A DNA stretch of 64,000 nucleotides, taken from positions 1 to 64,000 of IMG/VR virus record IMGVR_UViG_3300042541_003180; one strand, written 5' to 3'. How positions within the stretch are numbered: position 1 is the stretch's first letter; each line of letters opens with the position of its first letter. The position numbers and the translations under genes are program-made. Of the stretch, positions 3,022 through 52,216 are shown one piece after another. Origin of the DNA: a virus. The notes under the pieces are model-generated. The model was not told where the DNA came from, made no database searches, and worked only from the letters and a program-made list of their open reading frames with translations.

Positions 3022-3717
3022 ATGAGATTTATACAAAAGTTTAAAATATTTGAATCTACACAAGATTTACCAGAAAAGGGTACTAAGTGGATCAATGATA
3101 AAGGTGAAAAGATATTTATATTGAGACCAGATCAATATGGTTATATTGGTTATTATAACTTATCCGATCCAGAATATAAGAGACATATTAGTCCAGAAAC
3201 ATTTTATAACGAGTATAAACCATTAGATAAACATATTTATAGAGACGATATTGAGTTTGATTTTGATAAAGCTACTTATTTATCAGATGAGAAAGCTATC
3301 ATTGCTGCTTATTTCATAACTAAAGAAAATGAAAAGTCTATTGAAATTCTAAATATAAAAGAATTTGCTGCTGATACGGCCACTTTTATGGATAATGCCA
3401 GACCTTATTCAGTTACTTTCCACAAAGGTACTTTACCGACTTCACAAATTGCTATTTTAGGAGAAGTTCCTGAAAAAGAAGGTTTCTTCTATGTTAAAGT
3501 TCCTTATTGGTTATACAAAGAAAACCCAGAGTTGAATATTAAAAGAATAGTTGGTGATTATCATCATATGAAAAGATTAGATCTTAGAGATTTTAGTTTA
3601 AGTAATAAAGAATTGATGTCTAATTTCAAAGATCCTAATGTAATTAAATACTTTGCTAGTTCTGATAAAGATAAGAGAACTCAACAACAAGTAATAAATT
3701 ACGGAAGACGTAGTTAA
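3022..3717 (+). CDS. hypothetical protein with N-terminal capsid-targeting-like tag (start revised from 2905)
   Basis: ATG 3022 follows TAATATATA and gives MRFIQKFKIFES; this start avoids overlap with 2698..2970. Confidence 0.7.
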   Translation: MRFIQKFKIFESTQDLPEKGTKWINDKGEKIFILRPDQYGYIGYYNLSDPEYKRHISPETFYNEYKPLDKHIYRDDIEFDFDKATYLSDEKAIIAAYFITKENEKSIEILNIKEFAADTATFMDNARPYSVTFHKGTLPTSQIAILGEVPEKEGFFYVKVPYWLYKENPELNIKRIVGDYHHMKRLDLRDFSLSNKELMSNFKDPNVIKYFASSDKDKRTQQQVINYGRRS

Positions 3718-3968
3718 ATACCTAAATCATTTAATTTTTGATCTCTAATTTCTGAAACAAATAAACTATTAAAGGTTCCTTTTTCAGACCATACACGATC
3801 ATTTCTTGTATGAATTTTATTTTCAGTTTTTATAACACTATAGTAAATTTTAACCCAAGGTTTTCTTTCACTACTATAATCATCTATAACATTAATTATA
3901 ATTCTGTGATTTTTCTCAAGTTTAGTTAAATAATCTTTTACAATTATTTCTTTATTTTTTTCTGTCAT
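3714..3968 (-). CDS. hypothetical protein with C-terminal tag
   Basis: ends IRDQKLNDLGI; overlaps the DHFR stop. Confidence 0.65.
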   Translation of the reverse strand: MTEKNKEIIVKDYLTKLEKNHRIIINVIDDYSSERKPWVKIYYSVIKTENKIHTRNDRVWSEKGTFNSLFVSEIRDQKLNDLGI

Positions 3969-4434
3969 ATGTTAAGTAAGTAAAGTCATACTTATGTCTT
4001 TCATCTGATGGATGATATTCTTCTGAAACTAATTCCCATTCTTCACCAATTTCTGGAAAGAAAGTATCTGCTTCAAAATCTGAATGTACTCTTGTTAGTT
4101 CAATTCTATCTGCAATTCCCATAGATTGTTTATAGATTTCTCCACCACCAATTATCCAAATATCTTGATTGTCTGTAAAATCAATTGCTGATTGAATTGC
4201 ATCAAATACAAAACAATTTTCAGGTACTGAATAGTTATCTTGTCGAGTTATAATAAGGTGTTTTCTATTAGGTAGAGGTTTAGGGAACGTTTCAAACGTC
4301 TTTCTACCCATAAGTATATAATTACCTGATGTAAGTTCTTTAAATCTTTTAAAATCGTCTGGTAAGTGCCAAACTAAGTCATTGTCTTTACCTAAAGAAT
4401 TGTTTTCTCCGGCTGCTGCTATAATTGTTATCAT
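3952..4434 (-). CDS. folA: dihydrofolate reductase
   Basis: IIAA..N..LG.DNDLVWHLPDDFKRFK, MGRKTFE, PLPNR, IIGGGEIY, ADTFFP. Confidence 0.97.
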   Translation of the reverse strand: MITIIAAAGENNSLGKDNDLVWHLPDDFKRFKELTSGNYILMGRKTFETFPKPLPNRKHLIITRQDNYSVPENCFVFDAIQSAIDFTDNQDIWIIGGGEIYKQSMGIADRIELTRVHSDFEADTFFPEIGEEWELVSEEYHPSDERHKYDFTYLTYDRKK

Positions 4435-4463
4435 AAACTTTTTATGAAAAAAAATTAAAAAGT

Positions 4464-5861
4464 TTAACTACATTCATAACAAGAAACTCTACCGTCTCCC
4501 CCGCATTCTTGACATTCAGTTGTTCCATCTCCATCACATCTTGTACATTCTTCAAGTCCGCGACCACTACAATCATCACACTCTACTTTACAATTACCAT
4601 CGCATTTAGGACATTCTACTTGACCATCTTCACAATTATCACAAGGTATTTTACCAGAACCTTCACAATTATCACAAGATGAACCTTCAAACTCACCACT
4701 TGCATCACACTGAGGACAATCTATTTTAGCATAACCATCACACTGATTACAATCTACTGTTCCATCTCCATCACATCTACCACAATCATACTCACCATAC
4801 CCATCACACTCAGAACATTCTTGTTCTCCATTACCATCACATTTCCAACATCTGTATTCAGCAGAACCACCACAGTCTTCACATTCCCTGCTACCTGTAC
4901 CACCACATTCTGAGCAAGAACCATCACCACCTTCAGTATCAGTTAGTTCATATTCATATGAATCTGACCAGTTGTTTGTTAGTAAACTAGAGTGAGGAGT
5001 GTAATACTTTATCGTATCCATATAAGGATATTTACTAAAATCTCCACCGTGGTCTAAAGTAATATAAATCCAACTATCTTCTCTAGTTAATTCTTGTCCG
5101 TTAAACATAATTGGATCACCTGTTTGATAAGTTTGATTTTTCTTATAATAGAACCCATTATCGATTGCAAAATCTATAAATAGTTGAGTATCTGCAGAAT
5201 CTTGTATATAGATTCTGTCCATAAATTGTCTATCTTTGTTATCTAACCAAAGAAGAGCTCTACCGGTAATTTTAGTATCATCTGTTTTAGATTTTAAGAT
5301 TATTAAAGAACATCTTTCAGGATTACTAGAGTATATTTCTAAGAAGTCTCTACATTTTGAGTATCTCATACAAGAAGATCCTAATGTTCCCATTTCTCTT
5401 TCGTATTGACTATGATTATACCAATGTTTAATATCATTACCTTTAACTATTTCGAATCTTGTAAAAGCTTCTTTCTCAACTAAAATCGCGGCTTTATATT
5501 TATTTACAAAGTCTTCTAATTCTTTATTATCAACTTCACGACCGGCTTTAGTTAGAATTGCTCTTACAAATCTACCGACATTCATATCAGATTTTTTTAA
5601 TGTGTAAGGATCATCAACTTTTTTAGCTTTATCGTCTGGAATAAAGAAAACCTTATCTTCTTTTTCTAAATCAAATGTTATATAGTTATAGTTTGTATCA
5701 ACGTCTATACCATTTAACATTCTTAGATTTCTAGAAACAGGTGTATTTATTCTTTTAAGTAGGTTATTAAACTTGTCATCAAAAACAATTTTAGCTTCTA
5801 ACAACATTTGTATATCTTTTTCTAAAAGATACTCTTCGTATTTTGATAATTTATTCTTCAT
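4464..5861 (-). CDS. uncharacterised phage protein (SCM / GRAxLW / MDRIY / PYMDT domain) with 14 C-terminal CxxCxGxG zinc-finger repeats; paralogue 1 of 3
   Basis: motifs shared with 14736..16166 and 16220..17614; DnaJ-type Cys repeats. Confidence 0.8.
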   Translation of the reverse strand: MKNKLSKYEEYLLEKDIQMLLEAKIVFDDKFNNLLKRINTPVSRNLRMLNGIDVDTNYNYITFDLEKEDKVFFIPDDKAKKVDDPYTLKKSDMNVGRFVRAILTKAGREVDNKELEDFVNKYKAAILVEKEAFTRFEIVKGNDIKHWYNHSQYEREMGTLGSSCMRYSKCRDFLEIYSSNPERCSLIILKSKTDDTKITGRALLWLDNKDRQFMDRIYIQDSADTQLFIDFAIDNGFYYKKNQTYQTGDPIMFNGQELTREDSWIYITLDHGGDFSKYPYMDTIKYYTPHSSLLTNNWSDSYEYELTDTEGGDGSCSECGGTGSRECEDCGGSAEYRCWKCDGNGEQECSECDGYGEYDCGRCDGDGTVDCNQCDGYAKIDCPQCDASGEFEGSSCDNCEGSGKIPCDNCEDGQVECPKCDGNCKVECDDCSGRGLEECTRCDGDGTTECQECGGDGRVSCYECS

Positions 5862-5895
5862 ATTACTATATATTATTTTTTTGTGCTGAAAAACT

Positions 5896-5904
5896 TAATA
5901 TATA
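5896..5904 (+). promoter_or_regulatory. putative late promoter TAATATATA (a back-to-back copy lies on the - strand at 5867..5875)
   Basis: divergent genes starting at 5861 and 5910 each have a copy 5 nt from the ATG. Confidence 0.55.
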
Positions 5905-5909
5905 CAAAT

Positions 5910-7511
5910 ATGAAATACTTAAAATTATTTGAAGAGATCGAACTTACTATAGGTGAGTTAGAAAAAGAAAGAGATGGTGAGGTACGTGGTAACAAGTTAG
6001 TTAAAAAACTAAAAGAAAGACCGGTAAAATTATCAATTAAAGGTAACGGTGAGAAAAATATAACTAAAGTAGAGGTAGATGGTAAAGAAGTTACACCTGC
6101 TGTTGCTGCTAAAGAAATTAGTACAAATGATAAGTATGATAAGGATAAGGGTAGAAAAGTATTTATTAAAAATAATAGATATGATGATGTTTTAATTTCT
6201 GGTAAAAAACACTTTAAACTTAATCAAGTAACAAAAACTCCGGAATTTGGTGCTGTTGGACCAGGTGTATTAACAAGACAATATGAAGCAATACAATGTT
6301 TATTTATAGCCTTTAAGTTAAGATATCCAGGTGAGATAGTAGATAAGGATAGAGTTATTGATTTTTGGGAAAAATATGTTAATAAAGATGATAAAGTTTT
6401 TAAAAGAATTGGTATTTATTTGGATCCTAAGTTTACTTTAACACGTGAAATGATAGATAGTTTATCAACTAATAGAGATTGGTTAAATACTTTCGTTAGA
6501 GTACCTGAACTTTTGATGAATTTTAAAGGTATTTTCCCTCGTGTTAATAATGCTAGAAAGTACTTAGTTTTCCTTGAGTCAAATAAGGATCCTATTTCAC
6601 CGGTTGTAAATATAGTCAAAAAGTATAATGAATTAAAGAAGATTGCTAAATCTTATGTTAATTTTTCTAAGTTTTGTCCAGCCGATGTTTATATTGTTAT
6701 TGAAAAATCTTTACCTACGATTAATAAAGAAATAAGTGCACAAACTTCTATTGAAGGTTTGGTTAAACTACTAGATCGTTATTTTGATAGTAATGAACTG
6801 ATACCGGTATCACTTAAAAAGCTTAATGAAGGTGATAGAGTTATTGTTAATAAAGAAAAAACAAAAAAACTACCAGATTTTACAATTGATAAATTTGTTA
6901 TAACTGATGATCCGTTAAAAGGAATTGCATCAAAACTAAAAGTTAAATCTGTTTGGATGTCAGAGACTCCTAATGGTGAAGAAGAGCCAGAACAACCATC
7001 GAGAGATATAATTTTTGACTCATCTGATACTGGTAAAGCTAGAAATATTGATGGTGATATTTTAGGAAGGTCTTCAAGACACGGTAAGATAGCATTAAAA
7101 TCAATTATTTCATTTTTTGAGAAGAATGGTTTTGTTGAACTATATGATTTAACACTTGATTTATATTCTAACCTAAGTACAAAGAGTGAAGATGAATTAA
7201 GAGAAATGATTTTATCTACACATAGTAATTTATTAGACTTAGTACCCGATATAACACAAGTACCAACAAGAACTAAAAGTGGTGGTGCTAATAAAATGTA
7301 TAGTGATTTGGTAGAAGGAAGTACGGTAAGTAATATTAAAAATAGATTAATATCCAAACTACAATCTCTTCAGTTATTAGTTGCGATTGCAACTATTCAA
7401 TCGGTAGAACCTACTGATGCAAATATAGCAATTACTGGTATTATGAGATATGCTCTTTCTATTCAAACAGAGCTTTTTAATGATACACCGAGATATTTAA
7501 GAATAATTTAA
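5910..7511 (+). CDS. N-tagged protein with a putative PD-(D/E)xK-like nuclease domain (start revised from 5883)
   Basis: begins MKYLKLFEE; E(QYEAIQ)...CPADVYI...PVSLKK arrangement resembles restriction-endonuclease-like folds. Confidence 0.5.
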   Translation: MKYLKLFEEIELTIGELEKERDGEVRGNKLVKKLKERPVKLSIKGNGEKNITKVEVDGKEVTPAVAAKEISTNDKYDKDKGRKVFIKNNRYDDVLISGKKHFKLNQVTKTPEFGAVGPGVLTRQYEAIQCLFIAFKLRYPGEIVDKDRVIDFWEKYVNKDDKVFKRIGIYLDPKFTLTREMIDSLSTNRDWLNTFVRVPELLMNFKGIFPRVNNARKYLVFLESNKDPISPVVNIVKKYNELKKIAKSYVNFSKFCPADVYIVIEKSLPTINKEISAQTSIEGLVKLLDRYFDSNELIPVSLKKLNEGDRVIVNKEKTKKLPDFTIDKFVITDDPLKGIASKLKVKSVWMSETPNGEEEPEQPSRDIIFDSSDTGKARNIDGDILGRSSRHGKIALKSIISFFEKNGFVELYDLTLDLYSNLSTKSEDELREMILSTHSNLLDLVPDITQVPTRTKSGGANKMYSDLVEGSTVSNIKNRLISKLQSLQLLVAIATIQSVEPTDANIAITGIMRYALSIQTELFNDTPRYLRII

Positions 7512-8033: not shown

Positions 8034-8243
8034 ATGAGGTACTTGAAAAGATTTAACGAAAATAAAGATGTATTCATGGAATACTTACTTGAGTTTACTG
8101 AGAACGGTAAGCCAGAAGAGCTATATAATACTAGATTAAGTAAATTACTTAGATTTGTAAGAATGGAAGGACTTAAAGATTACACAATATCAGGTCAAAC
8201 AAGTACTGGTGAATGGAAAATAATACTAAAAATAGGAAAATGA
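8034..8243 (+). CDS. small N-tagged hypothetical protein
   Basis: MRYLKRFNEN; TTTATATATAG upstream. Confidence 0.65.
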   Translation: MRYLKRFNENKDVFMEYLLEFTENGKPEELYNTRLSKLLRFVRMEGLKDYTISGQTSTGEWKIILKIGK

Positions 8244-8245: not shown

Positions 8246-8270
8246 AACCCACTCGAAAGTGGGTTTTTTT
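8246..8270. terminator. intrinsic terminator between convergent genes
   Basis: AACCCACT-cgaa-AGTGGGTT followed by a T run. Confidence 0.75.
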
Positions 8271-9243: not shown

Positions 9244-9270
9244 ATTATATGAAAGAATTAAAAAATGTTT
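9244..9270 (-). promoter_or_regulatory. putative middle-class promoter AAAC-N17-TATAAT
   Basis: same spacing recurs before several DNA-metabolism genes. Confidence 0.45.
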
Positions 9271-9742
9271 AGTCTAAATGTCTAATATCTTTGTGTGAAG
9301 ATTTAGATTGATTCGAGTGTGACCATAATCTTGCAAATGGTGTAGTAAAGTAATCATTATAACATAAAGTATCATCAATATGAAGATTGATGTTATTTTC
9401 TTTACAATACTCTGCTTTGGTAGAATCCCATAAAACATCATCAAATTTTTTCTGAATAGTTCCATCTGGAAATTCTATTTCACCTAAGGTTTCTGCTGTT
9501 TTTAATAAGTGATCATAAACTGAGAATTTATGAGTATAGTTGATACCACTTAGTTGTTTTTCTAATTTTTCTGTCCATTCACCACCGGTTATAATGTGAA
9601 CTTCGCCATTATTTTTTATAACAGAGTCTGCTAAAAATACAAAGAACTCTGGAAGAGCATCGATTACTCCGTGTATATCGATACCTATTTTGAATTTTGC
9701 TGTTGAACTTTCGTTCACTATACTACTAAATTTTGTTATCAT
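9269..9742 (-). CDS. HAD-superfamily phosphatase/nucleotidase-like protein
   Basis: IGIDIHGVI (DxH variant of DxD), IITG, K..., HIDD; N-terminal MITKFSSIVNES. Confidence 0.65.
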   Translation of the reverse strand: MITKFSSIVNESSTAKFKIGIDIHGVIDALPEFFVFLADSVIKNNGEVHIITGGEWTEKLEKQLSGINYTHKFSVYDHLLKTAETLGEIEFPDGTIQKKFDDVLWDSTKAEYCKENNINLHIDDTLCYNDYFTTPFARLWSHSNQSKSSHKDIRHLD

Positions 9743-11696: not shown

Positions 11697-12212
11697 ATGA
11701 AATACATAAAATTATTTGAAGGTATAGTTCCTGCACATCAAAGTGGTTCAGATTATAGAACTAGAAACACTGATGAAACAGTAGATGTTACTACATTAGA
11801 CAAAATGTCATTAAGATCACCAGTATATCAAAAAGGTGAAATAATTATCTGGTCAGATAATGTAAAGAATAAAGATGTTGACTATGACTTTGCAGAGAAA
11901 TTACTAAGAAGAGTAGGTCTTAAATTGATAGGTGAACCTTATGATGGTGGATTTTTAGTAAAATGTGAACCAGGTAAAGAAGTAGAAAGTGCTAAAATGG
12001 CAATTTCTAGATTTCCTGAATTCTTTGATAGTTACGAAAGAGAGGATATAAGAATGCCTTTTATATCAAATAAAGTAGAAGAAATAAAGGATAAAGTTGA
12101 AGATATAGAAAGATTTTTTGAGAGTTCTATAAAAAGAAATGTAAATGTAACTAAATATAATAAGTATATTGATGATATTATTAAAGACCTTGATAATCTA
12201 AAAATAAAATAA
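11697..12212 (+). CDS. N-tagged hypothetical protein
   Basis: MKYIKLFEG; TAATATATA at 11683..11691. Confidence 0.7.
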   Translation: MKYIKLFEGIVPAHQSGSDYRTRNTDETVDVTTLDKMSLRSPVYQKGEIIIWSDNVKNKDVDYDFAEKLLRRVGLKLIGEPYDGGFLVKCEPGKEVESAKMAISRFPEFFDSYEREDIRMPFISNKVEEIKDKVEDIERFFESSIKRNVNVTKYNKYIDDIIKDLDNLKIK

Positions 12213-12590: not shown

Positions 12591-12611
12591 TGTTATTTTG
12601 TATTTTTAATG

Positions 12612-30473: not shown

Positions 30474-30501
30474 AAAAAGACATCTGATGATGTCTTTTTT
30501 T
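30472..30501. terminator. bidirectional intrinsic terminator
   Basis: AAAAAAGACATC-tgat-GATGTCTTTTTT. Confidence 0.75.
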
Positions 30502-36170: not shown

Positions 36171-36198
36171 AAAAAACCGAGATAGTTCTCGGTTTTTT
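36171..36198 (-). terminator. intrinsic terminator
   Basis: AAAAAACCGAGA-tagt-TCTCGGTTTTTT. Confidence 0.75.
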
Positions 36199-36774: not shown

Positions 36775-37272
36775 TTAATATATTTTTATAAGAAAAGTTA
36801 CTTCTTCAACTTCATCATTATCTGATAATTCTTCAAACTCTTCTATTGATACTTTTTCTTCTTTTATTTTAGCTAACATTTTAACCTTATCATAAGTTTT
36901 TTCAACTAATTGTGATGTTAGTAAAATAAAATCTTTAATTTCTGATAATTTAAAACTTTCTTTTTCGGTTCTACTAATATTTACTCTAAATATAGTTTTG
37001 TATTTACCTGTAACTAATTCACCTTCTTTATTTACATAAATATCATTTTCACTAAATCCAACTAATATATTAAATCTATCATCATCTGAGAGATAAGATA
37101 CTTCATTTCTAATTAATTGTGATAAATCTTTTTTTGGAAAGTCGTCTGGTAGAGTAGGTTTTAATTCAAATAAAATACCAACTAGTTCAACAACTTCTTG
37201 AGTATCAAGATCTTCGGGTCTAGTATATTTTATTTTACCGGAGAAGTTCTCATATAATTTTAAGTTTTTCAT
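36775..37272 (-). CDS. N-tagged hypothetical protein
   Basis: MKNLKLYENF. Confidence 0.7.
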   Translation of the reverse strand: MKNLKLYENFSGKIKYTRPEDLDTQEVVELVGILFELKPTLPDDFPKKDLSQLIRNEVSYLSDDDRFNILVGFSENDIYVNKEGELVTGKYKTIFRVNISRTEKESFKLSEIKDFILLTSQLVEKTYDKVKMLAKIKEEKVSIEEFEELSDNDEVEEVTFLIKIY

Positions 37273-40703: not shown

Positions 40704-41233
40704 TGAGACATTTAAAGAATTATAAGTTATTTTTAGAAGCAGATGGTATAAGTATTCCAATTGAACAAACTGATCCAGTTGATATTAAGATGAATAAACA
40801 AAGTATGGAAACTCTTAGTAAACAACTAGCTGATTATAAAACTAAACGACCTCAAATTGATAATGTTTACAAAAACATTAAAGATTCAGTTCAATTAGAA
40901 AGAGAATTGGTTAGAATATTAGGAGATCAAGCAATTCAAAATGGTCCTGATAGAAATCCATTTCTTGTTGAATATTCAACTTTAGCTAGAATGCAAAGTG
41001 ATTTATTAAAAATGGAACAAGAAAATAAAAATTATCAAGAAGAGCTAAAATTATCTACTGATGCTACTACAAAACAAGCTGTTAATACAAAGATACAAGA
41101 GTTGGTACAGAAAGTTAATAAAACAAAGACTGATTTTACGTTCGCTGAGAAGAAGCACAAAGATAATTTAGCTAAAATTGAAAAGGATATGAAAGAAAAT
41201 ATCACAAAAATATCTAATGTTAATCAAAAATAG
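40703..41233 (+). CDS. N-tagged coiled-coil protein
   Basis: MRHLKNYKLFLE|A; coupled to the upstream stop codon. Confidence 0.7.
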   Translation: MRHLKNYKLFLEADGISIPIEQTDPVDIKMNKQSMETLSKQLADYKTKRPQIDNVYKNIKDSVQLERELVRILGDQAIQNGPDRNPFLVEYSTLARMQSDLLKMEQENKNYQEELKLSTDATTKQAVNTKIQELVQKVNKTKTDFTFAEKKHKDNLAKIEKDMKENITKISNVNQK

Positions 41234-41292: not shown

Positions 41293-44200
41293 ATGGCAAT
41301 TCAAATTGGAAAATACAAAAGACCTGGTATCTTCATCGAAGAAATTGACAAGTCAGTATTCAGCACACCTACAGTAGAAGGAATAACTAACCTTATAATA
41401 GGAGTTTCTAAAAAAGGACCTGTTAATACACCGATTAGATTAACAACGGTTAACGACTTAGAAGCGGTTTATGGTCAATTAGATAGAAACTTGGAAAGAA
41501 AAGGATCTTTTTTCCACAGAACTGTTTCTAAAATGTTAGAATCATCTCCTGTTTTTGCGATGAACGTGTTATTAACGGATGATACATTAGATGTTATTGA
41601 GTATAAATCATTATCTTCTTCTGCACGTTATCTTAATGATATTAAAAGAGAAGGTCCTTATAGAAGATTCTTTGATACAACTGGTTTCTGGAAGAGAGAT
41701 ACTGAGGCTTTCATTAATCTAACAAAAAATAACTCTGGTTATGCAGAAAGAGCATTAAGCTTTACTAACTTATCAGACAGATACGTTACTGTATTTGCTG
41801 TTAAAACACAAGTTAGTGGATTTGATAGAACATTACTTGAATGGTATGGTTCTATTGAGAAACTACCACCTTATGTTAATGCTTCAGATTATGCATCTGA
41901 CTATATGGTTGACGTGGTTGTAATCGCAGGTGACTGGTCAGATTACAGAAACTTAGCTGTAGATAACAGATGGGGTCAATATTTTAATTCTGATGGTTTA
42001 ATTAAAGGTGAATTAAGAAACTTTGCAAATGATAGAAATGTTACTTTGTTAGCATATTACGAAGGATTATCATTAATTCCTTACTTTAGAGATTTAGAAG
42101 GAAGAAATATCTTTATTGAAACTACGATTAACAGAGGTACTGATACAACTGGTTTATATTGTGCATTCAATGCTGATTTAGTTGAAGAAGATTACTATAC
42201 AGGTTTAGTTGACCTTATCGGTGGTACTTTAATTGACTCTGCTAATCCATTAATAACACAACAAAAAGAAATTGATTTCTTATCATATAAAGAAACTATT
42301 ATTGAATCAGTTCCATTTACTGCAACTCCTTTGGATTTACCAGGGAACGTTGTTGCATTATTTGGTACAGTATCAAATAATAATAGTGGTTTAGAAGGTC
42401 AAATGCCACACGCTTTTGGTAATCCAAAAGAAACAGGTGTTGTTGTTCATCACTCTAATAGAACTGCTTGGTTTACAGAAGGTGCCGTAGTTGGTGTCAA
42501 TCTTGCTACTGGTGCTAATGTAGATACAGATGGACATTTTAATCATACAAAAACTGGTTCAGGTACATCATCTATATTAAATGTTAAATATACTTCAACT
42601 AACTTTATTGATAATGGATTTGATGTAAGTCCTTACGCTGTAATTGGTGGTCAGTATATTCCTGTTACATATGGTACATATTCATTTAATGTTAAATCTA
42701 CTGACTTTACATACTCTACGTCTGTAGCAACTTACTCAACAGTATTCACATTAAATACAAGTGGAGTTATCTCTAGTGTTACTAGTTATACACCAAATGT
42801 TAGACCAAGTGTATCAACATCTGATATAGTATTGGGTTATATTTCATATAATGTTATAAATGGTGGTTTCTCTGGAACGGCATCATTTCAAGAGATTACT
42901 ATTGCATCAGACCCTACACTAGAAGAATATGTTATTCCTGGTTATGGAGATGATGTATATTTCCAAGCAGGTACAACACCATACCAAGATTTAACTTATG
43001 GTACTAATTCAACAGTACATGATTATTATGTTTATGATTTAAGTAACGAGGTTGGTTATTCACAAGGTGATGTTAGATTGGTGTTCTGGGGAACAGCAGG
43101 ATCTGATGTTAAAAACTATGTACAGTTTAGAAAACTTAAAATGTTTAATAAAATTACTGAGTTTTTAGGTACTTATAAAGATCAAGCAACTATGATTATT
43201 AGTGTAGATGGTTCTGGTAAAGAAGTTAAGAAAAGTTTAGCTTCTATGACAGTTACTGAAGTAGTAACTTCTTCAACACAAAATAAATCTTTGGTATTAA
43301 AAACTGGATTATCAAATGTTTCTTATATCTCTGGTGCAAATGGTGGTGTATTTAAAATCTATAAAAACGATAATGAGTTTATTTTAGGTAGTGATAAATT
43401 ACGTACTAAAGATGAACCTGCAAATACTAATATTGGTGTTGTTGGTAAGTATTCAACTTTCTACCAAAAATACTTTAATGGTTTAATTAGTGATGGTGAT
43501 TATTTCTATGCAAATAGATTATTAACTACTGCAGATAAAGATACATTGAACGATGAGTTTGTAGATGGTGGTGGTAATTTTACAACTACTATAAATGTTA
43601 CATTTGTTAATGGTGAGGCAACTCCTGATCCTACAGTAATTAATATTACAAGTCCTTATGCAGGATATAACTATGTTGTATTTGAAACTCCAAGTGTCAG
43701 TGCTTCAACTGCAGTAAGTAATTTAGATTTACAAATTTTAGATCAAATTTTATTCCCTGTATCACTTAATAATACTACTTCATTAACAATACAACAAAAT
43801 AGTGTTAATTCTTCACAGGGTGCTGTTGCTTTAGCAACTGCTTTAGGGTTTACCGGTAGTAATTTCTTCGCATATGAGGTAGCAGAGAATGTTACTTACG
43901 AAGAATTAACAGGAGTTACTATGATGTATAATACATTAGAAAGTGCTGCAATGAAGTCTTATTTACAAATGTTTGTAGATTTAGATGGTTTATTAGAAGT
44001 TTCATTTACTAGTGATGATTTAATATCAATTAATTCAATTGAACCAGTTGCTAACTATACATTTAATGTTCAATCTGAATTAAGTAACTTAAAACAAACA
44101 CTTGAGATTGAATTACCTACTGGATATACTCAAGTACAAAACAAAATATTAGTTAATGCATCAAGATATAGTGAAGTAAAAGTTGGTGATTTCTTATTAG

Positions 44201-45459
44201 CAGATAATAGTGATTTCACTCCTGCATTAGGACAAACAAACCTAAGAAACTTAACAAGAATCTTGAGTAAAAGACAATATGCTGGTGATACTAGTTTAAC
44301 TGAGATTACTTGTGATGCTAAAATCTTAAAAACATCATATACTAATCCTCTAACTGGTTTATTAGATTATCAAACAACAAGATACTCAACAGTTGACCAA
44401 TATACAACGACATATAAAGGTATTTCTTTAAAAGGATTTAGAGTTAGACAAGCTTCTTTACCTGATGGTACTGAAACTAAACAAAATCAAATCTTAAACT
44501 TGATTGCAAAAGGAACACCATTGTTCAAAGCGTTAATTAATAAAGAAGCATTTGACTTTAGATATTTAGTTGACTCATTTGGTTTAGGTTTAACTGAAAG
44601 ATCAAAACAACAATTAGTAGATATTTGTGGTGAGAGATTGAATGTATTTGGTTTCATTAATATGCCATCATTAAAATCATTCAAAAACTCTTCATCTCCA
44701 AGTTTCGTAAACACAGAAGGAGTATTACAAGTAGATTTTATTGCTAAAGGTGGAGACCCAGAAAGTAATCCTGCATTCCTTTACTCATTCGGTGATGGAA
44801 ATGGAGTATCAACAGTTGGTTATTTCACTCCTTATGTAACAGTAAATGATAATGGTAGACCATTAGATTTTCCACCTGCTGCATATGTTGCGACAACTTA
44901 TATGAGAAAACATACTTCTATTGTAAGTAATATTACACCTTGGACAATTGCTGCTGGTGTTACAAATGGTAGAGTTACTAATATTGCTGGTGTTGAACAC
45001 GATTTCAACCCAACAGATATTGAGTTCTTAAACCAAGCACAAATGAACCCAATTGTATTGAAAAGAAACAGAGGATATGTAATTGAGACTGAGAATACTG
45101 CATTAACAATCTACAAATCAGCATTATCTTTAATCCACGTGAGAGAAGTATTAGTTGAGTTAGAAAGAGAACTTGCTGCAATGTTGCTTGATTACCAATG
45201 GAAGTTTAATACTCCTGATGTTAGAGCTGAAATTAAATTAAGAGCTGATGTTATTTGTGAAACTTATGTAAACAAAAATGGTTTATATAACTACTTCAAC
45301 AAAATGGATGACGAGAATAATACAGTTGATATTATCGATAGTCAAATTGGAGTTCTTGATACTTATGTAGAACCAATCAAAGGTATGGGTATCATTGTAA
45401 ACAATGTTACAATTTTAAGAACTGGTGCTATTGCAGCTGGTGGTTTCATCAACGCATAA
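41293..45459 (+). CDS. contractile tail sheath protein with large insertion domains
   Basis: N-terminal PGIFIEEID...G.S.KGP.N.P; C-terminal PPA.YVA, W..AAG..NG, L.....NPI, SALS.IHVR..L, FN....R. Confidence 0.9.
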   Translation: MAIQIGKYKRPGIFIEEIDKSVFSTPTVEGITNLIIGVSKKGPVNTPIRLTTVNDLEAVYGQLDRNLERKGSFFHRTVSKMLESSPVFAMNVLLTDDTLDVIEYKSLSSSARYLNDIKREGPYRRFFDTTGFWKRDTEAFINLTKNNSGYAERALSFTNLSDRYVTVFAVKTQVSGFDRTLLEWYGSIEKLPPYVNASDYASDYMVDVVVIAGDWSDYRNLAVDNRWGQYFNSDGLIKGELRNFANDRNVTLLAYYEGLSLIPYFRDLEGRNIFIETTINRGTDTTGLYCAFNADLVEEDYYTGLVDLIGGTLIDSANPLITQQKEIDFLSYKETIIESVPFTATPLDLPGNVVALFGTVSNNNSGLEGQMPHAFGNPKETGVVVHHSNRTAWFTEGAVVGVNLATGANVDTDGHFNHTKTGSGTSSILNVKYTSTNFIDNGFDVSPYAVIGGQYIPVTYGTYSFNVKSTDFTYSTSVATYSTVFTLNTSGVISSVTSYTPNVRPSVSTSDIVLGYISYNVINGGFSGTASFQEITIASDPTLEEYVIPGYGDDVYFQAGTTPYQDLTYGTNSTVHDYYVYDLSNEVGYSQGDVRLVFWGTAGSDVKNYVQFRKLKMFNKITEFLGTYKDQATMIISVDGSGKEVKKSLASMTVTEVVTSSTQNKSLVLKTGLSNVSYISGANGGVFKIYKNDNEFILGSDKLRTKDEPANTNIGVVGKYSTFYQKYFNGLISDGDYFYANRLLTTADKDTLNDEFVDGGGNFTTTINVTFVNGEATPDPTVINITSPYAGYNYVVFETPSVSASTAVSNLDLQILDQILFPVSLNNTTSLTIQQNSVNSSQGAVALATALGFTGSNFFAYEVAENVTYEELTGVTMMYNTLESAAMKSYLQMFVDLDGLLEVSFTSDDLISINSIEPVANYTFNVQSELSNLKQTLEIELPTGYTQVQNKILVNASRYSEVKVGDFLLADNSDFTPALGQTNLRNLTRILSKRQYAGDTSLTEITCDAKILKTSYTNPLTGLLDYQTTRYSTVDQYTTTYKGISLKGFRVRQASLPDGTETKQNQILNLIAKGTPLFKALINKEAFDFRYLVDSFGLGLTERSKQQLVDICGERLNVFGFINMPSLKSFKNSSSPSFVNTEGVLQVDFIAKGGDPESNPAFLYSFGDGNGVSTVGYFTPYVTVNDNGRPLDFPPAAYVATTYMRKHTSIVSNITPWTIAAGVTNGRVTNIAGVEHDFNPTDIEFLNQAQMNPIVLKRNRGYVIETENTALTIYKSALSLIHVREVLVELERELAAMLLDYQWKFNTPDVRAEIKLRADVICETYVNKNGLYNYFNKMDDENNTVDIIDSQIGVLDTYVEPIKGMGIIVNNVTILRTGAIAAGGFINA

Positions 45460-48920: not shown

Positions 48921-49679
48921 TTAAAATTTTATAAATAATACTTGTACTGGTATACCAAGTTGAAGAGCTATAGTAGACCTTTTGTGTCCTCCAATCAATC
49001 TATTATCATTACCTTGATTGTCCTTTAAGTTTATAACAAAGGGCGTGGGTAAAGATATTTTACCATTATTTTTAATCAAATCATCATAAGTTATTAAGTA
49101 TCGTTCAACATCTGCTTTAATTGGACAAGTAGGTAATGCACTTTTTAGTTCTTCAATACCTTTTATACCTTTATTTTTAACTTGAAAAGAACCTTTCCAT
49201 CCTCCCTTTCCAGATGTACTACCGAATATTTTTGTTAAATCTCCCATATTTCCGGTTGAATCAACATCTTTCCAAGTAACTACACTACATGATTTTATAA
49301 AATTTGATACTTCTTTTATACAAGTTGGATCACCGCCCTCTACAATACCATCTTTATCTGGAACACCAACTATATCCTTTTTAAATTCAATGTTTCCAAA
49401 TCCTAAACTTTCAGGATTTTTATTTAACAATAGTTTTTTAATTTCTTCCTTATCGGTTGTTTCTTTTTTAAGATAATTTTTTACTACATAATGAAAAACA
49501 CTAGGTATTTTAGCATAAACCCTATCAAAGTTATCTGGTTTAAAAAACAACTCCATATTATTTATCAACTCATGTAGTTCTGATAAAATTGTTTTATCAT
49601 CTGGTGTAACCCAATCGATTTCAAATTTCATCTCATTTTCATCTAGTATGAATGATTCATATACTTTTAAATACCTCAT
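48921..49679 (-). CDS. N-tagged protein with a C-terminal ParB/Srx-like domain
   Basis: MRYLKVYESF; LPTPFVI......RLIGGHKR..A..LG. Confidence 0.6.
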   Translation of the reverse strand: MRYLKVYESFILDENEMKFEIDWVTPDDKTILSELHELINNMELFFKPDNFDRVYAKIPSVFHYVVKNYLKKETTDKEEIKKLLLNKNPESLGFGNIEFKKDIVGVPDKDGIVEGGDPTCIKEVSNFIKSCSVVTWKDVDSTGNMGDLTKIFGSTSGKGGWKGSFQVKNKGIKGIEELKSALPTCPIKADVERYLITYDDLIKNNGKISLPTPFVINLKDNQGNDNRLIGGHKRSTIALQLGIPVQVLFIKF

Positions 49680-49936
49680 AATTTTTGTAATTTTATTTTC
49701 AAATCTCCAGTTCCTTTTATAACTCTGTGATAAACTCCCATTGGTATAAAAACTTCACCTTGAATAACTTTTGGTAATTCATCATCTAATTGTACTTGCC
49801 AATCTGTTTCACCAATAGATTCAATTATCCTATCTTCTCTATCTCTGTGCCATTGATAATCTCCAGAGTCAGTATTTTGTTTAAACTCTCTGATAAATAT
49901 ATTATCTGATATTATTTCTTCTTTAAACGGTAACAT
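49676..49936 (-). CDS. small cupin-like phage protein
   Basis: WHRDREDR, W..Q.D..LP, FIP..VYHRVIKG.G.L. Confidence 0.65.
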   Translation of the reverse strand: MLPFKEEIISDNIFIREFKQNTDSGDYQWHRDREDRIIESIGETDWQVQLDDELPKVIQGEVFIPMGVYHRVIKGTGDLKIKLQKL

Positions 49937-50520
49937 TATAAAATCTTATTAATTTTTTCAATTGAGGATTCATCAAATATTGCCACATTTTTAGAACCTC
50001 TTTCTGCAACCATAAATCCATCATATCCTTTTGACTTTATTTGATTGATAATTGGATCACATTCTATTATTTGCCAAGAACCATTCTTTATTAGCCAAAG
50101 ATAGTTATAAACAGTTTGTGAAAAATCTTCTAAATCAAATTCCTTTTCGGTATCATAATCAAATCCTTTGAATCCTTTACCTCTATTTGCTATAAATTTT
50201 TTACCATTTGTAGGATCTTCATATTTATCATCTATCATTTTTTGTAATATTGATTTAAGTTCTAACTCTTTCATAGTCTTTACTTGCATCGGATCACATA
50301 TTTTTAGATTTGACTTTATTTTTATTTCCCAAACGGCTCCTTCTGGAAATTGTTCTCTTTCATCGAATCCTGCAAAGTTTTTTGCAAAGTCTAAATTACT
50401 TGTTAAAAATATAGCACCTGCAAATCTTTTTCTCTTTGGTGGAAAATCTCCTTTTCTATTACCATGATATAACTTTTCTTCTATAGATTCAAATATTTTG
50501 TATTCTTTTAAGTATTTCAT
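49936..50520 (-). CDS. N-tagged ADP-ribosyltransferase-like protein
   Basis: MKYLKEYKIFES; LYHG, AIFLT...FA..FA, GYDG, VAIFD...I. Confidence 0.6.
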   Translation of the reverse strand: MKYLKEYKIFESIEEKLYHGNRKGDFPPKRKRFAGAIFLTSNLDFAKNFAGFDEREQFPEGAVWEIKIKSNLKICDPMQVKTMKELELKSILQKMIDDKYEDPTNGKKFIANRGKGFKGFDYDTEKEFDLEDFSQTVYNYLWLIKNGSWQIIECDPIINQIKSKGYDGFMVAERGSKNVAIFDESSIEKINKIL

Positions 50521-50524
50521 TCTA

Positions 50525-51622
50525 TTATGTTATTTTTATTGCATCAAGCTTTGGTTTTACTATCATATAGATACCCACAGATATTACCAATGTGTCTAAT
50601 ACATTTAGTATTGAACCAACGTATGGTATTTTCATAACTGCGGCTTTTATACCTTTTGTAATATCTTCTCCATTAAATCCTACCATTTTCCAAACTTCAT
50701 CCATCGATTTATCTTGTATTGAGTTAGTTAGTTCATCAAAACCACTTGCCTTTGAGACAAAATCTTTAAATTTATTTATACTACCTAAAACTTTATAAAA
50801 AATATATAACTCTAATATTTGAAATAGAAATACGAAAGATTTTCCAAATCTACTCATAGATTCTGATTTACCTGTTGTCAACCAACAAAAAAATTTATCC
50901 ATTAGTTGTGATAGTTTACTTATTCCTTGTTTCATTAAATCCTCGATTTTTGGAATCCAATTAAATGGTGGATAAGTCATTATTTTCTCACCTAATCTTT
51001 GTAAAAATGATTTTTTTTCTTCTTCACCATTATCCTCTAATAAAAAATTATCATCTAAATAAATAAGTCCTTCATTAGTTCCTAAGTTTAATACACCTGA
51101 AAATGTTTCTGATAATCTAGTCACTAAATCTGTTATAATTTGACCTGATGCTATATATTTTAGTAGTTCTGATATACTCGTTATATAAGATTTTAGTTTA
51201 ATTAGTTTTTTATTTTCTATAAATTCGATTAGTGGTTCTATAAATCCACTATCTTTTAACGCATGTTCTTTTATTTTCTGTTCCATTGATAAAAATTGTG
51301 TCTTAACATAATTACCAATTTGTCCTGCTAGTGATTTTGCAAAATCTAATACATCTTTTGCTTTTTTTGCTAAATCAACTAATAGTTCACCTGCTTTAGA
51401 TTTTACTGCTAAAACTCCTCTCTTACCTTTATCTACTAAATCAGAAAACCAGGATTCATTTATCATACCATAGTTAGAGTCTATTAGTATTTTCTCATTT
51501 ATAGTTAAATGACTTTCATATAATGAATTGAATATCATAGTAAAGTTAGATATATCATTACTATCAATACCCTCTAATATATTTACTTCTGAAAAATTCT
51601 CGTATGTCTTTAAGTATCTCAT
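50525..51622 (-). CDS. N-tagged amphipathic/TM helical protein (candidate ejection protein)
   Basis: MRYLKTYENF; several (I/L)xE sites (ILE, INE, LLE); hydrophobic C-terminal helices. Confidence 0.65.
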   Translation of the reverse strand: MRYLKTYENFSEVNILEGIDSNDISNFTMIFNSLYESHLTINEKILIDSNYGMINESWFSDLVDKGKRGVLAVKSKAGELLVDLAKKAKDVLDFAKSLAGQIGNYVKTQFLSMEQKIKEHALKDSGFIEPLIEFIENKKLIKLKSYITSISELLKYIASGQIITDLVTRLSETFSGVLNLGTNEGLIYLDDNFLLEDNGEEEKKSFLQRLGEKIMTYPPFNWIPKIEDLMKQGISKLSQLMDKFFCWLTTGKSESMSRFGKSFVFLFQILELYIFYKVLGSINKFKDFVSKASGFDELTNSIQDKSMDEVWKMVGFNGEDITKGIKAAVMKIPYVGSILNVLDTLVISVGIYMIVKPKLDAIKIT

Positions 51623-51637
51623 ATTATTATAAATTTT

Positions 51638-52216
51638 TTACCAGAAGCCGGGGTACGTACGTCCACCCCACAGATGTCCGTATTTATTTATTCTGCATGC
51701 CCAATAACCTGCAGTAGTTTTATCTTTCTTAGTATCACACTTATGTCTTGCTGCAAATGATTTTCTTGCTTTAGGATCACTTACCTTAGCAGTTAGACCA
51801 CCATGAACATCTCCAAAGGCAATCTTTTTAACATTTCCAGTTTTAGGATTTCTAACATAAACATGGTATTTCTTAGTACCACCTCTCATAGGTTTATTCA
51901 ACTCTACTTCTCTACCTTTGTATTCTGCTTCGTTTAATTCTTCAATAGTTTCCATTGGTAAATCTAAAGGAACTATTTGACCTTCATATTCGGCAAATCG
52001 ACCTATATCAGTTGATTCAAATAATTCGGTATCTAATTCAGATAATTCGATTTGATTTGCATCAAATAATTGTCTTGCTTCTTTAATTAGGTTAAAGTAT
52101 TGATTAGATCCAGGTCTAAATACATTTTCAACAATAGGTTTATTATTATCGATGTGATATTGTAGATTTTCTGATATTCTACCAGAGAATGATTCAAATA
52201 GTTTTAAGTACTTCAT
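51638..52216 (-). CDS. N-tagged conserved-looking phage protein with basic C-terminal domain
   Basis: MKYLKLFESF; LNE|AEYKG; KKIAFGD, RKSFAARHKCD, AGYWAC; TAATATATA at 52238..52246. Confidence 0.7.
   Translation of the reverse strand: MKYLKLFESFSGRISENLQYHIDNNKPIVENVFRPGSNQYFNLIKEARQLFDANQIELSELDTELFESTDIGRFAEYEGQIVPLDLPMETIEELNEAEYKGREVELNKPMRGGTKKYHVYVRNPKTGNVKKIAFGDVHGGLTAKVSDPKARKSFAARHKCDTKKDKTTAGYWACRINKYGHLWGGRTYPGFW

What the first reader, a model, noticed from the sequence alone, without database searches (positions are those of the whole stretch)
3022..52216. About 20 diverse proteins share an N-terminal capsid-targeting-like tag M(K/R)(Y/H/N)(L/I)Kx(F/Y)E: a large packaged cargo arsenal
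Seen directly: MRFIQKFKIFES (3022), MKNKLSKYEEYLLE (5861-), MKYLKLFEE (5910), MRYLKRFNE (8034), MITKFSSIVNE (9742-), MKYIKLFE (11697), MLKKYIDFITE (14736), MITNYYDYITE (16220), MNKLKKYNDFLILE (24463-), MKHVKAFEKF (28616-), MKNIKTFESF (33928-), MKYIKKYNE (35226-), MKYLQTHE (36772-), MKNLKLYENF (37272-), MRYLNKREDFLRE (37992), MRHLKNYKLFLE (40703), MRYLKVYESF (49679-), MKYLKEYKIFE (50520-), MRYLKTYENF (51622-), MKYLKLFESF (52216-). Established: T4 internal proteins IPII/IPIII carry the capsid-targeting sequence MKTYQEFIAE, and prohead protease gp21 cuts after (I/L)xE. Inference: this phage loads many more proteins into its head than T4 does, including putative enzymes (ART, ParB-like, nuclease, HAD, zinc-rod proteins), and injects them with the DNA.
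Basis: partly seen in the sequence, partly recalled or inferred. Interest (0 to 1): 0.85.

Follow-up and report, generated by a model that had tools for sequence, protein, structure and literature searches.

The report
Capsid-loading tags on giant-phage proteins
About a quarter of the genes on this fragment of an uncultured giant phage start with a short peptide that looks and behaves like phage T4's signal for loading proteins into the virus head, so the phage probably carries a large, sequence-predictable set of proteins into its host, though packaging has not been measured.

Summary
Observation confirmed. All 20 listed N-termini are present. On the whole 85-kb contig, 27 of 107 ORFs carry the tag. 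16 match a strict pattern, against 0.008 expected by chance.

The window is about 15% of a megaphage related to the 635-kb LR745206, where about 100 of 921 ORFs are tagged.

- MK[YH][LI]Kx[FY], then E, NE or K[IL]FE.
- M(I)KK[YF]xx[FY]IxE, which has the same format as the T4 IPII/IPIII capsid-targeting sequence.

Evidence that this is a peptide-level address label:
- Synonymous codons vary freely within the tag.
- Tag forms swap among orthologues.
- AlphaFold leaves exactly the tag disordered.

Evidence for the T4-like reading:
- The clade has a gp23-like capsid protein and a gp21-like protease.
- In the cultured relative PAU, an analogous tag ending in LxE sits on the annotated scaffold and internal capsid proteins.
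- Tagged genes share the promoter type of the structural genes and never that of the replication genes.

Packaging, cleavage and injection remain inferred. About half of the first-form tags lack a canonical (L/I)xE site.

Enzyme calls:
- Supported: ART fold, and a SET domain (the latter beyond the window).
- Weak: zinc-finger domain.
- Not found: ParB and nuclease.

This scan has noted similar tags before on other phage DNA.

The parts
3022..3717 (+). Tagged ORF, 231 aa, starts MRFIQKFKIFES (the form ending in I-F-E-S). No Pfam hit.
4464..5861 (-). Tagged ORF, 465 aa, starts MKNKLSKYEEYLLE (second form, L-L-E). Cys-rich family; paralogue of 14736 and 16220. BSD2_CRD zinc-finger hit, E 1e-4, below the Pfam cut-off.
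5910..7511 (+). Tagged ORF, 533 aa, starts MKYLKLFEE. TAATATATA-type box 6 nt upstream of the ATG.
8034..8243 (+). Tagged ORF, 69 aa, starts MRYLKRFNEN.
9269..9742 (-). Tagged ORF, 157 aa, starts MITKFSSIVNES (second form, I-V-N-E|S). It has 511 public homologues; most carry the tag and a few orthologues lack it. The body begins FKIGIDIHGV (HAD-like motif, seen by eye only).
11697..12212 (+). Tagged ORF, 171 aa, starts MKYIKLFEG. Its LR745206 homologue is also tagged.
14736..16166 (+). Tagged ORF, 476 aa, starts MLKKYIDFITES (second form, the closest in format to the T4 IPII/IPIII CTS).
16220..17614 (+). Tagged ORF, 464 aa, starts MITNYYDYITES (second form).
23789..24463 (-). Tagged ORF, 224 aa, starts MNKLKKYNDFLILE (loose second form, L-I-L-E). 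No Pfam hit.
28050..28616 (-). Tagged ORF, 188 aa, starts MKHVKAFEKF. Conserved with its tag in four related megaphage records.
33353..33928 (-). Tagged ORF, 191 aa, starts MKNIKTFESF, followed by a hydrophobic segment. One of the few tagged proteins with a TM-like stretch.
34807..35226 (-). Tagged ORF, 139 aa, starts MKYIKKYNED, followed by a hydrophobic, lipobox-like stretch (LLFGSC).
36197..36772 (-). Tagged ORF, 191 aa, starts MKYLQTHEGF. Weak paralogue of 36775-37272.
36775..37272 (-). Tagged ORF, 165 aa, starts MKNLKLYENF.
37992..40703 (+). Tagged ORF, 903 aa, starts MRYLNKREDFLRE. First of two tagged genes directly upstream of the tail sheath gene. The arrangement is syntenic in LR745206.
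40703..41233 (+). Tagged ORF, 176 aa, starts MRHLKNYKLFLE. Directly upstream of the sheath gene. The LR745206 orthologue starts MKYLKKYKIFLE.
48921..49679 (-). Tagged ORF, 252 aa, starts MRYLKVYESF.
49936..50520 (-). Tagged ORF, 194 aa, starts MKYLKEYKIFES, with an ADP-ribosyltransferase-fold body that begins LYHGNRKG. In 30 orthologues the tag residues F10, E11 and S12 are at least 90% conserved and the linker is variable. In the AlphaFold model residues 1-12 (the tag) have pLDDT below 50, while the rest averages about 90.
50525..51622 (-). Tagged ORF, 365 aa, starts MRYLKTYENF.
51638..52216 (-). Tagged ORF, 192 aa, starts MKYLKLFESF. First gene of a four-gene tagged operon (52216 down to 48921) behind a TAATATATA-type box.
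41293..45459 (+). Untagged context gene: tail sheath, 1388 aa. It served as the anchor for finding relatives. It has the same TAATATATA-type upstream box as the tagged genes.
30500..32647 (-). Untagged context gene: T4-type large terminase (Terminase_6N, E 1e-20). 76% identical to that of LR745206.

Best explanation
The tags are capsid (prohead-core) targeting propeptides of the phage T4 type.

Proposed mechanism:
1. A short N-terminal peptide has a basic start, hydrophobic or aromatic residues three apart (positions 4 and 7, or 5 and 8), and a closing Glu.
2. This peptide binds the scaffolding core while the prohead assembles, so the attached protein is enclosed.
3. The gp21-like prohead protease then cuts after the Glu and frees the cargo inside the head.
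4. The cargo leaves with the DNA at infection.

In this megaphage clade the label has spread to about a tenth of all genes. On this contig it is on about a quarter. It exists in interchangeable variants.

Shown here:
- The tag exists far beyond chance on unrelated proteins.
- It is selected as a peptide.
- It is a modular, unstructured add-on.
- Its format matches the T4 CTS.
- The clade has T4-type head genes.
- A cultured relative carries an analogous tag on its annotated scaffold and internal capsid proteins.
- Tagged genes share the promoter type of the structural genes.

Inferred, not shown: binding to the scaffold, cleavage after Glu, presence in virions, and ejection into the host.
For: 1. 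Statistics. 16 of 107 N-termini match the strict pattern, against 0.008 expected, and 0 of 514 internal Met positions match. In LR745206, 77 + 25 of 921 ORFs are tagged. The DNA pattern occurs 61, 25 and 11 times in three further relatives, and the reversed control occurs 0 times.

2. Peptide-level selection. Synonymous codon use inside the tag equals genome usage.

3. Modularity.
- The bodies are unrelated.
- Orthologues carry different tag forms or none.
- In 30 orthologues of 49936-50520 the tag's F-E-S is at least 90% conserved next to a variable linker.
- AlphaFold gives pLDDT below 50 for exactly residues 1-12 and about 90 for the fold.

4. T4 likeness.
- T4 IPII and IPIII begin MKTYQEFIAE.
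- T4 genetics place targeting at residues 4 and 7 and processing at residues 8 and 10, and gp21 cuts after L/I-x-E (PMC9026906).
- The second tag form, M(I)KK[YF]xx[FY]IxE, has the same spacing.
- The first form has L/I at position 4 and F/Y at position 7 even under a minimal seed.

5. Head machinery.
- LR745206 (TerL 76% identical) has a gp23-family capsid protein (PF07068, E 7e-26). A protein with a gp21-like protease N-terminus lies just upstream (E 1e-4, GEFDHP aligned to T4 GELNHP).
- Its capsid propeptide ends I-N-E at the place equivalent to the T4 gp23 L-T-E site (alignment by eye).

6. Cultured relative PAU.
- About 20 of 296 proteins start MK[TS][LI]xxL[YF]E, which ends in LxE. There is 1 internal match in 69,282 positions.
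- They cluster around the portal, protease and capsid genes.
- The depositors annotate tagged gp152 as scaffolding and tagged gp142 and gp154 as internal capsid proteins.
- The PAU capsid protein loses about 65 residues by N-terminal sequencing (PMC5646251). That is within one residue of L-M-E64.

7. Timing proxy.
- 7 of 13 replication-like genes have an AAAC[TA]-N14-19-TATA-type promoter; 0 of 9 structural genes do.
- 0 of 120 tagged genes have only this promoter, against 65 of 830 untagged (p = 1.6e-4).
- 63 of 120 tagged genes have only the TAATATATA-type box used by the structural genes, against 165 of 830 untagged (p = 3e-13).

8. Cargo character.
- Tagged genes are more often without a homologue in LR745206 (12 of 20 against 24 of 82, p = 0.017). 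The T4 internal-protein loci are variable in the same way (PMC3012670).
- Identifiable tagged proteins are plausible host-directed enzymes: an ART fold, SET, a 2H/Acb1-like domain plus exonuclease, Sa_NUDIX, DHH, RNA ligase and an M15 peptidase.
- The true replication genes are untagged.
Against: - There are no virion protein data for this phage or any member of its clade. Packaging and cleavage are inferred.
- The protease and capsid genes are not on this contig, which is estimated to be 15% complete.
- Only 27% of first-form tags have (L/I)xE within residues 5-12, and 48% within residues 5-26. The figure is 28% for untagged N-termini. So most MKYLKxFE tags do not end in the canonical T4 cutting site.
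- The basis of PAU's 'internal capsid protein' labels is unknown, and its tag differs in sequence.
- About 100 different cargo proteins is far beyond any documented case.
- Some tagged proteins would be odd cargo. T4's own RNA ligase homologue is not known as a virion protein (my knowledge). There is also a 903-aa protein next to the sheath gene, and five tagged proteins have TM-like segments.
- The promoter classes are sequence patterns, not measured transcription.
Confidence: 0.65

Rival explanations
1. The tag is an address or recognition label for some other phage process. Candidates are assembly into another virion part such as the tail or baseplate, recruitment to an intracellular phage compartment, or timed proteolysis. 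The phage encodes a ClpS adaptor.
For: - The tag is a modular, disordered, peptide-selected label. That fits any sorting system.
- Two tagged genes sit directly upstream of the sheath gene in this phage and in LR745206.
- A ClpS homologue (PF02617, E 5e-20) lies beside the terminase gene and is conserved in LR745206.
- About half of the first-form tags lack a canonical (L/I)xE site.
Against: - The format matches the T4 CTS down to the spacing of the experimentally defined determinant positions.
- In PAU the analogous tag is on the annotated scaffold and internal capsid proteins, around the protease gene.
- No recognisable tail or baseplate homologue carries a tag.
- ClpS reads N-terminal F/Y/W/L (my knowledge). 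Neither the Met start nor the S/N/E/A residues that follow the tag's Glu would give such an end.
Confidence: 0.15
2. The tag is the recognition leader for a modifying enzyme.
For:
- LR745206 and LR756502 each encode one radical-SAM protein, and LR756501 encodes nine.
Against: - PAU has the analogous tags and no radical-SAM match.
- The contig has none either, but it is only a fragment.
- The about 100 tagged genes are scattered across the genome. I did not measure their distance to the single radical-SAM gene.
- There is no Cys, Ser or Thr pattern in the tag that suggests a modification site.
Confidence: 0.05
3. The conservation is a nucleic-acid or expression feature. Either the first codons are an AT-rich translation-initiation signal for short-leader mRNAs, or they are a conserved 5' gene end that serves as a recombination joint for shuffling gene cassettes.
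For: - Many tagged genes have the TAATATATA-type box only 6-30 nt upstream of the ATG, so their leaders are very short.
- AAA or AGA as the second codon is common.
- Tagged genes often lie in tandem arrays and turn over quickly.
Against: - Synonymous sites in the tag vary as in the rest of the genome: K AAA 77%, E GAA 82%, L spread over five codons.
- What is conserved is residue class (L/I/V, F/Y, K/R).
- Untagged genes behind the same promoter type, such as sheath and portal, have unrelated N-termini.
- A recombination role could coexist with the CTS reading but would not explain amino-acid-level selection.
Confidence: 0.05

Closest known systems
Phage T4 capsid targeting sequence (CTS) on internal proteins IPI, IPII and IPIII (and the propeptide of Alt), removed by the prohead protease gp21 (Mullaney and Black 1996, as reviewed in PMC9026906 and PMC3012670)
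   Same: - A roughly 10-residue N-terminal peptide is shared by otherwise unrelated, fast-evolving proteins.
- It has a basic start and hydrophobic or aromatic residues three apart, and it ends in Glu. The second tag form reproduces the Y..FI.E spacing of MKTYQEFIAE.
- The phage clade has gp23-type capsid and gp21-type protease genes.
- One tagged cargo has an ART fold, as T4 Alt is an ADP-ribosyltransferase.
   Different: - Scale: about 100 tagged genes per genome (about 11%), and 27 of 107 on this contig, against a handful in T4.
- Several interchangeable tag variants exist. The commonest, MK[YH][LI]Kx[FY]E, usually lacks L/I at P3 of the presumed cut.
- The protease domain is fused to a long C-terminal region in a 707-aa protein in the relative.
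- Nothing has been measured.
Sphingomonas (Sphingobacterium) phage PAU, 219 kb, cultured: MK[TS][LI]xxL[YF]E N-termini
   Same: - It is a T4-superfamily jumbo phage of a Bacteroidota host. It is among the closest cultured relatives by terminase.
- About 20 unrelated proteins share an N-terminal tag ending in LxE.
- The tag is on the annotated scaffold and on two annotated internal capsid proteins, next to the gp21-like protease.
   Different: - The tag sequence is different.
- There are fewer tagged genes, and they are mostly clustered in the head module rather than scattered.
- No tagged protein of this contig or of LR745206 has a PAU homologue at E below 1e-5.
- I found no paper in the library that describes the PAU tag.
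Propeptide-bearing ejection and inner-body proteins of phiKZ-like giant phages (phiKZ, 201phi2-1, SPN3US)
   Same: Dozens of head-internal proteins are loaded through N-terminal propeptides and cut after Glu by a gp21-related protease. Many are ejected into the host (PMC5694885, PMC9026906).
   Different: - Those propeptides are long (often over 100 residues) and not a shared short tag.
- The cleavage motif is S/A/G-x-E.
- The phage lineage and capsid gene family are different.

Membership tests
T4-type capsid targeting sequence (CTS) cargo system | A short N-terminal peptide shared by otherwise unrelated proteins | tested here: met
   16 strict matches (27 in all) among 107 ORFs, against 0.008 expected. 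The bodies are unrelated by BLASTP except for one trio and one weak pair.
T4-type capsid targeting sequence (CTS) cargo system | Targeting determinants: hydrophobic or aromatic residues at positions 4 and 7 of the tag (T4 IPIII genetics) | tested here: met
   With a minimal seed M[KR]..K (108 proteins), position 4 is L/I in 81 and position 7 is F/Y in 73. The second form has the same i, i+3 spacing shifted by one residue. The T4 rule comes from PMC9026906. This is a match of pattern, not a functional test.
T4-type capsid targeting sequence (CTS) cargo system | The tag ends in the prohead-protease site (L/I)-x-E | tested here: inconclusive
   The second form (IxE or LxE) and the K[IL]FE variant conform. 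In one orthologous family the aligned [IL]FES is at least 90% conserved. Of all first-form tags, only 27% have [LI]xE in residues 5-12 and 48% in residues 5-26, against 28% for untagged N-termini. A Glu at position 8, 9 or 11 is near-universal.
T4-type capsid targeting sequence (CTS) cargo system | The phage has the T4-type head assembly set: a gp23-family capsid protein with propeptide, a gp21-family protease and a scaffolding core | tested here: met
   Met in the closest complete relative, LR745206: PF07068 E 7e-26, and PF03420 E 1e-4 in the adjacent 707-aa protein, with GEFDHP aligned to T4 GELNHP. These genes are not on this contig, which ends just before that module. The protease match is below Pfam's cut-off.
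T4-type capsid targeting sequence (CTS) cargo system | Tagged proteins are present inside proheads or virions and have lost the tag | not testable with these tools
   The phage is uncultured and I had no proteomic data. The only indirect support is the PAU annotation of tagged proteins as scaffolding and internal capsid proteins. The basis of that annotation is unknown.
T4-type capsid targeting sequence (CTS) cargo system | The tag alone suffices to load a foreign protein | not testable with these tools
   This needs a fusion experiment. The nearest evidence is natural: the same body carries different tag variants or none in different phages.
ADP-ribosyltransferase fold (for 49936-50520 only) | ART-superfamily fold of the body | tested here: met
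   The AlphaFold model has pLDDT 88.7. The top 8 Foldseek hits (MbcT, RES toxin, AcrIF11, ParT; E 0.012-0.48) and all 50 listed VIA-align rows are ART-fold proteins, with Z 5.8-7.4, rmsd 3.2-5.1 and 78-144 residues aligned. The language-model neighbours carry ART-PolyVal (score 0.95, on 23-29% of members). The Z values are middling, so the fold assignment is moderate. Catalytic residues were not verified.
   There is no PF04055 match in PAU or on the contig. There is one match each in LR745206 and LR756502, against about 100 and at least 61 tagged genes. The contig is a fragment, so its absence counts for little.

The most novel reading that the evidence does not exclude
Megaphages of this clade load about a tenth of their encoded proteins, on the order of 100 different species, into the capsid through a family of interchangeable T4-like address tags. 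The cargo would include host-directed and anti-defence enzymes: an ART, a SET methyltransferase, a 2H/Acb1-like phosphodiesterase fused to an exonuclease, a SMODS-associated NUDIX, a DHH phosphoesterase and an RNA ligase. If so, the 'injected proteome' of uncultured giant phages can be read directly from the genome sequence.
Probability: 0.45. Interest if true: 0.8.

Novelty: new variant of a known kind. Interest (0 to 1): 0.62.

Why it matters
If the reading holds, the first dozen residues of a gene would predict which proteins an uncultured giant phage delivers into its host at the moment of infection. That would explain part of what these 0.5-0.7 Mb genomes spend their coding capacity on. 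It would also point directly to candidate pre-made counter-defence enzymes that act before any phage gene is transcribed.

It would extend the T4 capsid-targeting mechanism from a handful of internal proteins to a genome-wide sorting code, with variants that swap among orthologues.

It also gives a practical handle. The cultured relative PAU carries an analogous tag and could be used to test the code experimentally.

Tried and rejected
- **Homologues in cultured phages.** tblastn with two tagged proteins against 50,697 phage records found only the uncultured megaphage records. phmmer of all tagged proteins against PAU found nothing at E below 1e-5.
- **Tenacibaculum phage PTm1.** No shared tag in its first 50 kb. 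I did not pursue it, and its virion-proteome paper is not in the library.
- **Simple promoter test.** AATATATA within 60 nt was enriched before tagged genes (46-59% against 16%). It also precedes uvsX- and gp46-like genes. I replaced it with a two-class test.
- **T4 gp55 late sigma factor.** No phmmer hit in LR745206 at E 1e-3.
- **Pfam on the 20 window proteins.** Only two sub-threshold hits, BSD2_CRD and RusA. No ParB, nuclease or HAD family was found.
- **Membrane-targeting idea.** Rejected: TM-like segments occur in 5% of first-form proteins, 0% of second-form proteins and 10% of the rest.
- **Paralogy.** Rejected.
- **RNA-level conservation.** Rejected.
- **A second note's claim that the two tag forms track different promoter classes.** Not borne out by my simple classes. 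Both forms have the same box, 48% and 66%, and the forms interchange inside one orthologous family.
- **Class-1 pattern elsewhere.** Absent from LR756501 and Lak-C1. LR756501 instead has about 45 second-form tags and an MIKKFKLFE type.
- **Literature.** Searches found no description of such tags in megaphages or in PAU.

Full report
**What the DNA is.** The window is the first 64 kb of an 85,311-bp, 28% G+C virus contig, estimated to be 15% complete.
- Its tail sheath and T4-type large terminase find, as closest relatives, the uncultured 'huge phage' genomes LR745206 (635 kb; TerL 76% identical), LR756502, LR756504, LR756500 and LR756501/3.
- The nearest cultured relatives are Sphingomonas (really Sphingobacterium, PMC3738902) phage PAU and the Tenacibaculum jumbo phages.
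- I fetched LR745206, LR756501 and PAU whole for comparison.

**The observation.** All 20 quoted N-termini are real.
- A strict pattern matches 16 of 107 ORFs. The same core occurs twice in 26,060 internal positions and never after 514 internal Met residues, so chance predicts 0.008.
- Counting the looser form, 27 of 107 contig ORFs are tagged. Seven lie beyond the window, one of them a SET-domain protein (Pfam E 1e-13).
- The bodies are unrelated apart from one paralogous trio and one weak pair.
- In LR745206, 77 + 25 of 921 ORFs carry a tag.
- The DNA pattern for the first form occurs 61, 25 and 11 times in LR756502, LR756504 and LR756500. It occurs 0 times in LR756501 and Lak-C1, and 0 times when reversed.

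**Two forms, one system.**
- Form 1 is M[KR][YH][LI]Kx[FY], followed by E, [ND]E or K[IL]FE, and then mostly S or N.
- Form 2 is M(I/K/L)(K)K[YFW]xx[FY][IL]xE[S/E/A].
- LR756501 lacks form 1 but has about 45 form-2 tags and an MIKKFKLFE type.
- The forms are interchangeable. Orthologues carry form 1 in one clade and form 2 in another. The RNA ligase of LR745206 has a 14-residue tag that its LR756501 homologue lacks.
- Inside one orthologous family (161 public homologues of 49936-50520), the variants MKYLKLFES, MKHLKTYKLFES and a form-2-like start replace one another in front of an invariant LYHGNRKG body.

**It is a peptide label, not an RNA feature or part of a fold.**
- Synonymous codons within the tag follow genome usage.
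- In the 30-sequence alignment the tag's F-E-S is at least 90% conserved, as well conserved as the core residues, while the next four residues vary.
- AlphaFold2 on that alignment gives mean pLDDT 88.7, with pLDDT below 50 for residues 1-12 only, which is exactly the tag.
- A second family (511 homologues of 9269-9742) shows the same layout. A few orthologues start directly at the body.
- Tagged proteins are mostly soluble.

**Comparison with T4.** The T4 sequences were fetched, not recalled.
- IPII and IPIII begin MKTYQEFIAE, and IPI begins MKTFKEF.
- The review PMC9026906 reports three things. The first 10 residues suffice for targeting. Targeting depends mainly on residues 4 and 7, and processing on residues 8 and 10. 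gp21 cuts after L/I-x-E.
- Form 2 reproduces this spacing with one extra residue.
- Form 1 has L/I at position 4 and F/Y at position 7 even when only M[KR]..K is used as a seed.
- PMC3012670 describes T-even internal proteins as a diverse set of defence-countering proteins that share only the CTS.

**Head machinery.**
- LR745206 encodes a gp23-family capsid protein (PF07068, E 7e-26; BLASTP to T4 gp23 E 2e-8).
- Directly upstream is a 707-aa protein whose N-terminus matches gp21 (PF03420, E 1e-4, below cut-off; GEFDHP aligned to T4 GELNHP).
- By eye, its capsid propeptide ends ...SINE|NAYANASNVSGMGAV, opposite T4's ...FLTE|AEIGGDHGYNATNIAAGQTSGAV.
- The contig breaks off just before this module.

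**The cultured relative.**
- About 20 of 296 PAU proteins begin MK[TS][LI]xxL[YF]E. There is one internal match in 69,282 positions. This tag ends in LxE.
- The tagged genes cluster around the portal, the gp21-like protease (PF03420, E 3e-11) and the capsid gene.
- GenBank annotates tagged gp152 as scaffolding and tagged gp142 and gp154 as internal capsid proteins. The basis of these labels is not stated.
- Hua et al. (PMC5646251) report from N-terminal sequencing that the PAU capsid protein matures from 585 to 520 residues. That puts the cut within one residue of L-M-E64.

**Timing proxy.** I defined gene classes by T4 homology in LR745206.
- 7 of 13 replication-like genes have an AAAC[TA]-N14-19-[TA]ATA[TA]A two-element promoter-like site. 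None of 9 structural genes has it.
- 7 of 9 structural genes have only a TAATATATA-type box.
- Among tagged genes, 0 of 120 have only the replication-type site, against 65 of 830 untagged (p = 1.6e-4).
- 63 of 120 tagged genes have only the structural-type box, against 165 of 830 untagged (p = 3e-13).
- These are sequence patterns, not measured transcripts.

**Cargo.**
- Most tagged proteins have no Pfam or PHROG match.
- The identifiable ones in LR745206 are an RNA ligase 1, a 2H/Acb1-like domain fused to a DEDD exonuclease, a SMODS-associated NUDIX, a weak DHH, a 193-aa Toprim protein and an M15 peptidase. The SET protein is on this contig.
- The gp41-, gp43- and gp61-like replication genes are untagged.
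- Window protein 49936-50520 has an ART fold. The top 8 Foldseek hits and all 50 listed VIA-align rows are ART-fold proteins (Z 5.8-7.4). One of them is a domain of the cyanophage A4 pre-ejectosome. Its language-model neighbours carry ART-PolyVal.
- Tagged genes turn over faster: 12 of 20 against 24 of 82 lack an LR745206 homologue (p = 0.017).

**Weak points.**
- There are no protein-level data for this clade.
- Only 48% of form-1 tags have [LI]xE within 26 residues, against 28% for untagged N-termini. So the cut site of MKYLKxFE tags is uncertain.
- About 100 cargo species is unprecedented.
- A few tagged proteins have TM-like segments.
- Two tagged genes flank the sheath gene.
- The rivals (another sorting target, a modifying-enzyme leader, an expression signal) are weighed in their own sections. 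None explains the T4-like format together with the PAU evidence.

**Earlier notes of this scan.**
- Follow-up agents have reported similar T4-like tags on other uncultured phages. I did not test those reports.
- Notes on this genome about an ART-fold protein, a SET protein and two promoter classes agree with what I tested.
- The claim that the two tag forms track different promoter classes does not hold in my test.

**Verdict.** This is a real, highly non-random, modular N-terminal tag system. It is most likely a greatly expanded variant of the T4 capsid-targeting mechanism. The function is inferred, not shown.

Noticed in passing
window 30189-30473 (+): Phage-encoded ClpS adaptor homologue (PF02617, E 5e-20), immediately beside the large terminase gene. 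It is conserved at the same place in LR745206 (180414-180695). Its role is unknown. It might redirect host ClpAP.
   Followed up: partly
window 21015-22247 (+): Phage-encoded NusA homologue (NusA_N E 2e-24, plus KH domains). This is unusual equipment for a phage.
   Followed up: no
window-wide, e.g. upstream of 5910, 11697, 16220, 41293, 52297: There are two promoter-like classes. A single TAATATATA-type box precedes the structural and tagged genes, often only 6-30 nt from the ATG, which implies very short leaders. An AAAC[TA]-N14-19-TATA-type two-element site precedes the replication-like genes (tested in LR745206).
   Followed up: partly
contig 79554-80003 (+), beyond the window (L084:16054-16500): SET-domain protein (PF00856, E 1e-13) directly behind an MRYLKTFENF tag. 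A candidate delivered protein methyltransferase.
   Followed up: partly
LR745206 448257-449573 (-) and 340824-341435 (-): Tagged enzymes that could degrade nucleotide second messengers. One is a 2H/Acb1-like phosphoesterase fused to a DEDD exonuclease. The other is a SMODS-associated NUDIX (E 1.5e-30).
   Followed up: partly
window 12611-12685 (-): A single tRNA-Met (CAT) gene.
   Followed up: no
window 52297-58344 (+): A 2015-aa protein with a weak carbohydrate-binding CBM_5_12 match near the C-terminus. It is conserved in LR745206 (209260-214992). Possibly a fibre or other surface protein.
   Followed up: no
window 8269-9237 (-), 24504-25847 (+), 25897-27051 (+): Untagged housekeeping-type genes sit among the tagged ones: a C5 cytosine DNA methyltransferase, a topoisomerase IV/gyrase A-like subunit and an RlaP-family nucleotidyltransferase.
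   Followed up: no
LR745206 198546-200669 (+): The gp21-like protease domain is the N-terminus of a 707-aa protein. This may be a protease-scaffold fusion, in place of T4's separate gp21 and gp22.
   Followed up: no
LR756501, e.g. 474929-476339 and 5130-5426: Several small tagged proteins share a DPYGEE(I/D)W motif right after the tag. This is a paralogous mini-family of unknown function.
   Followed up: no
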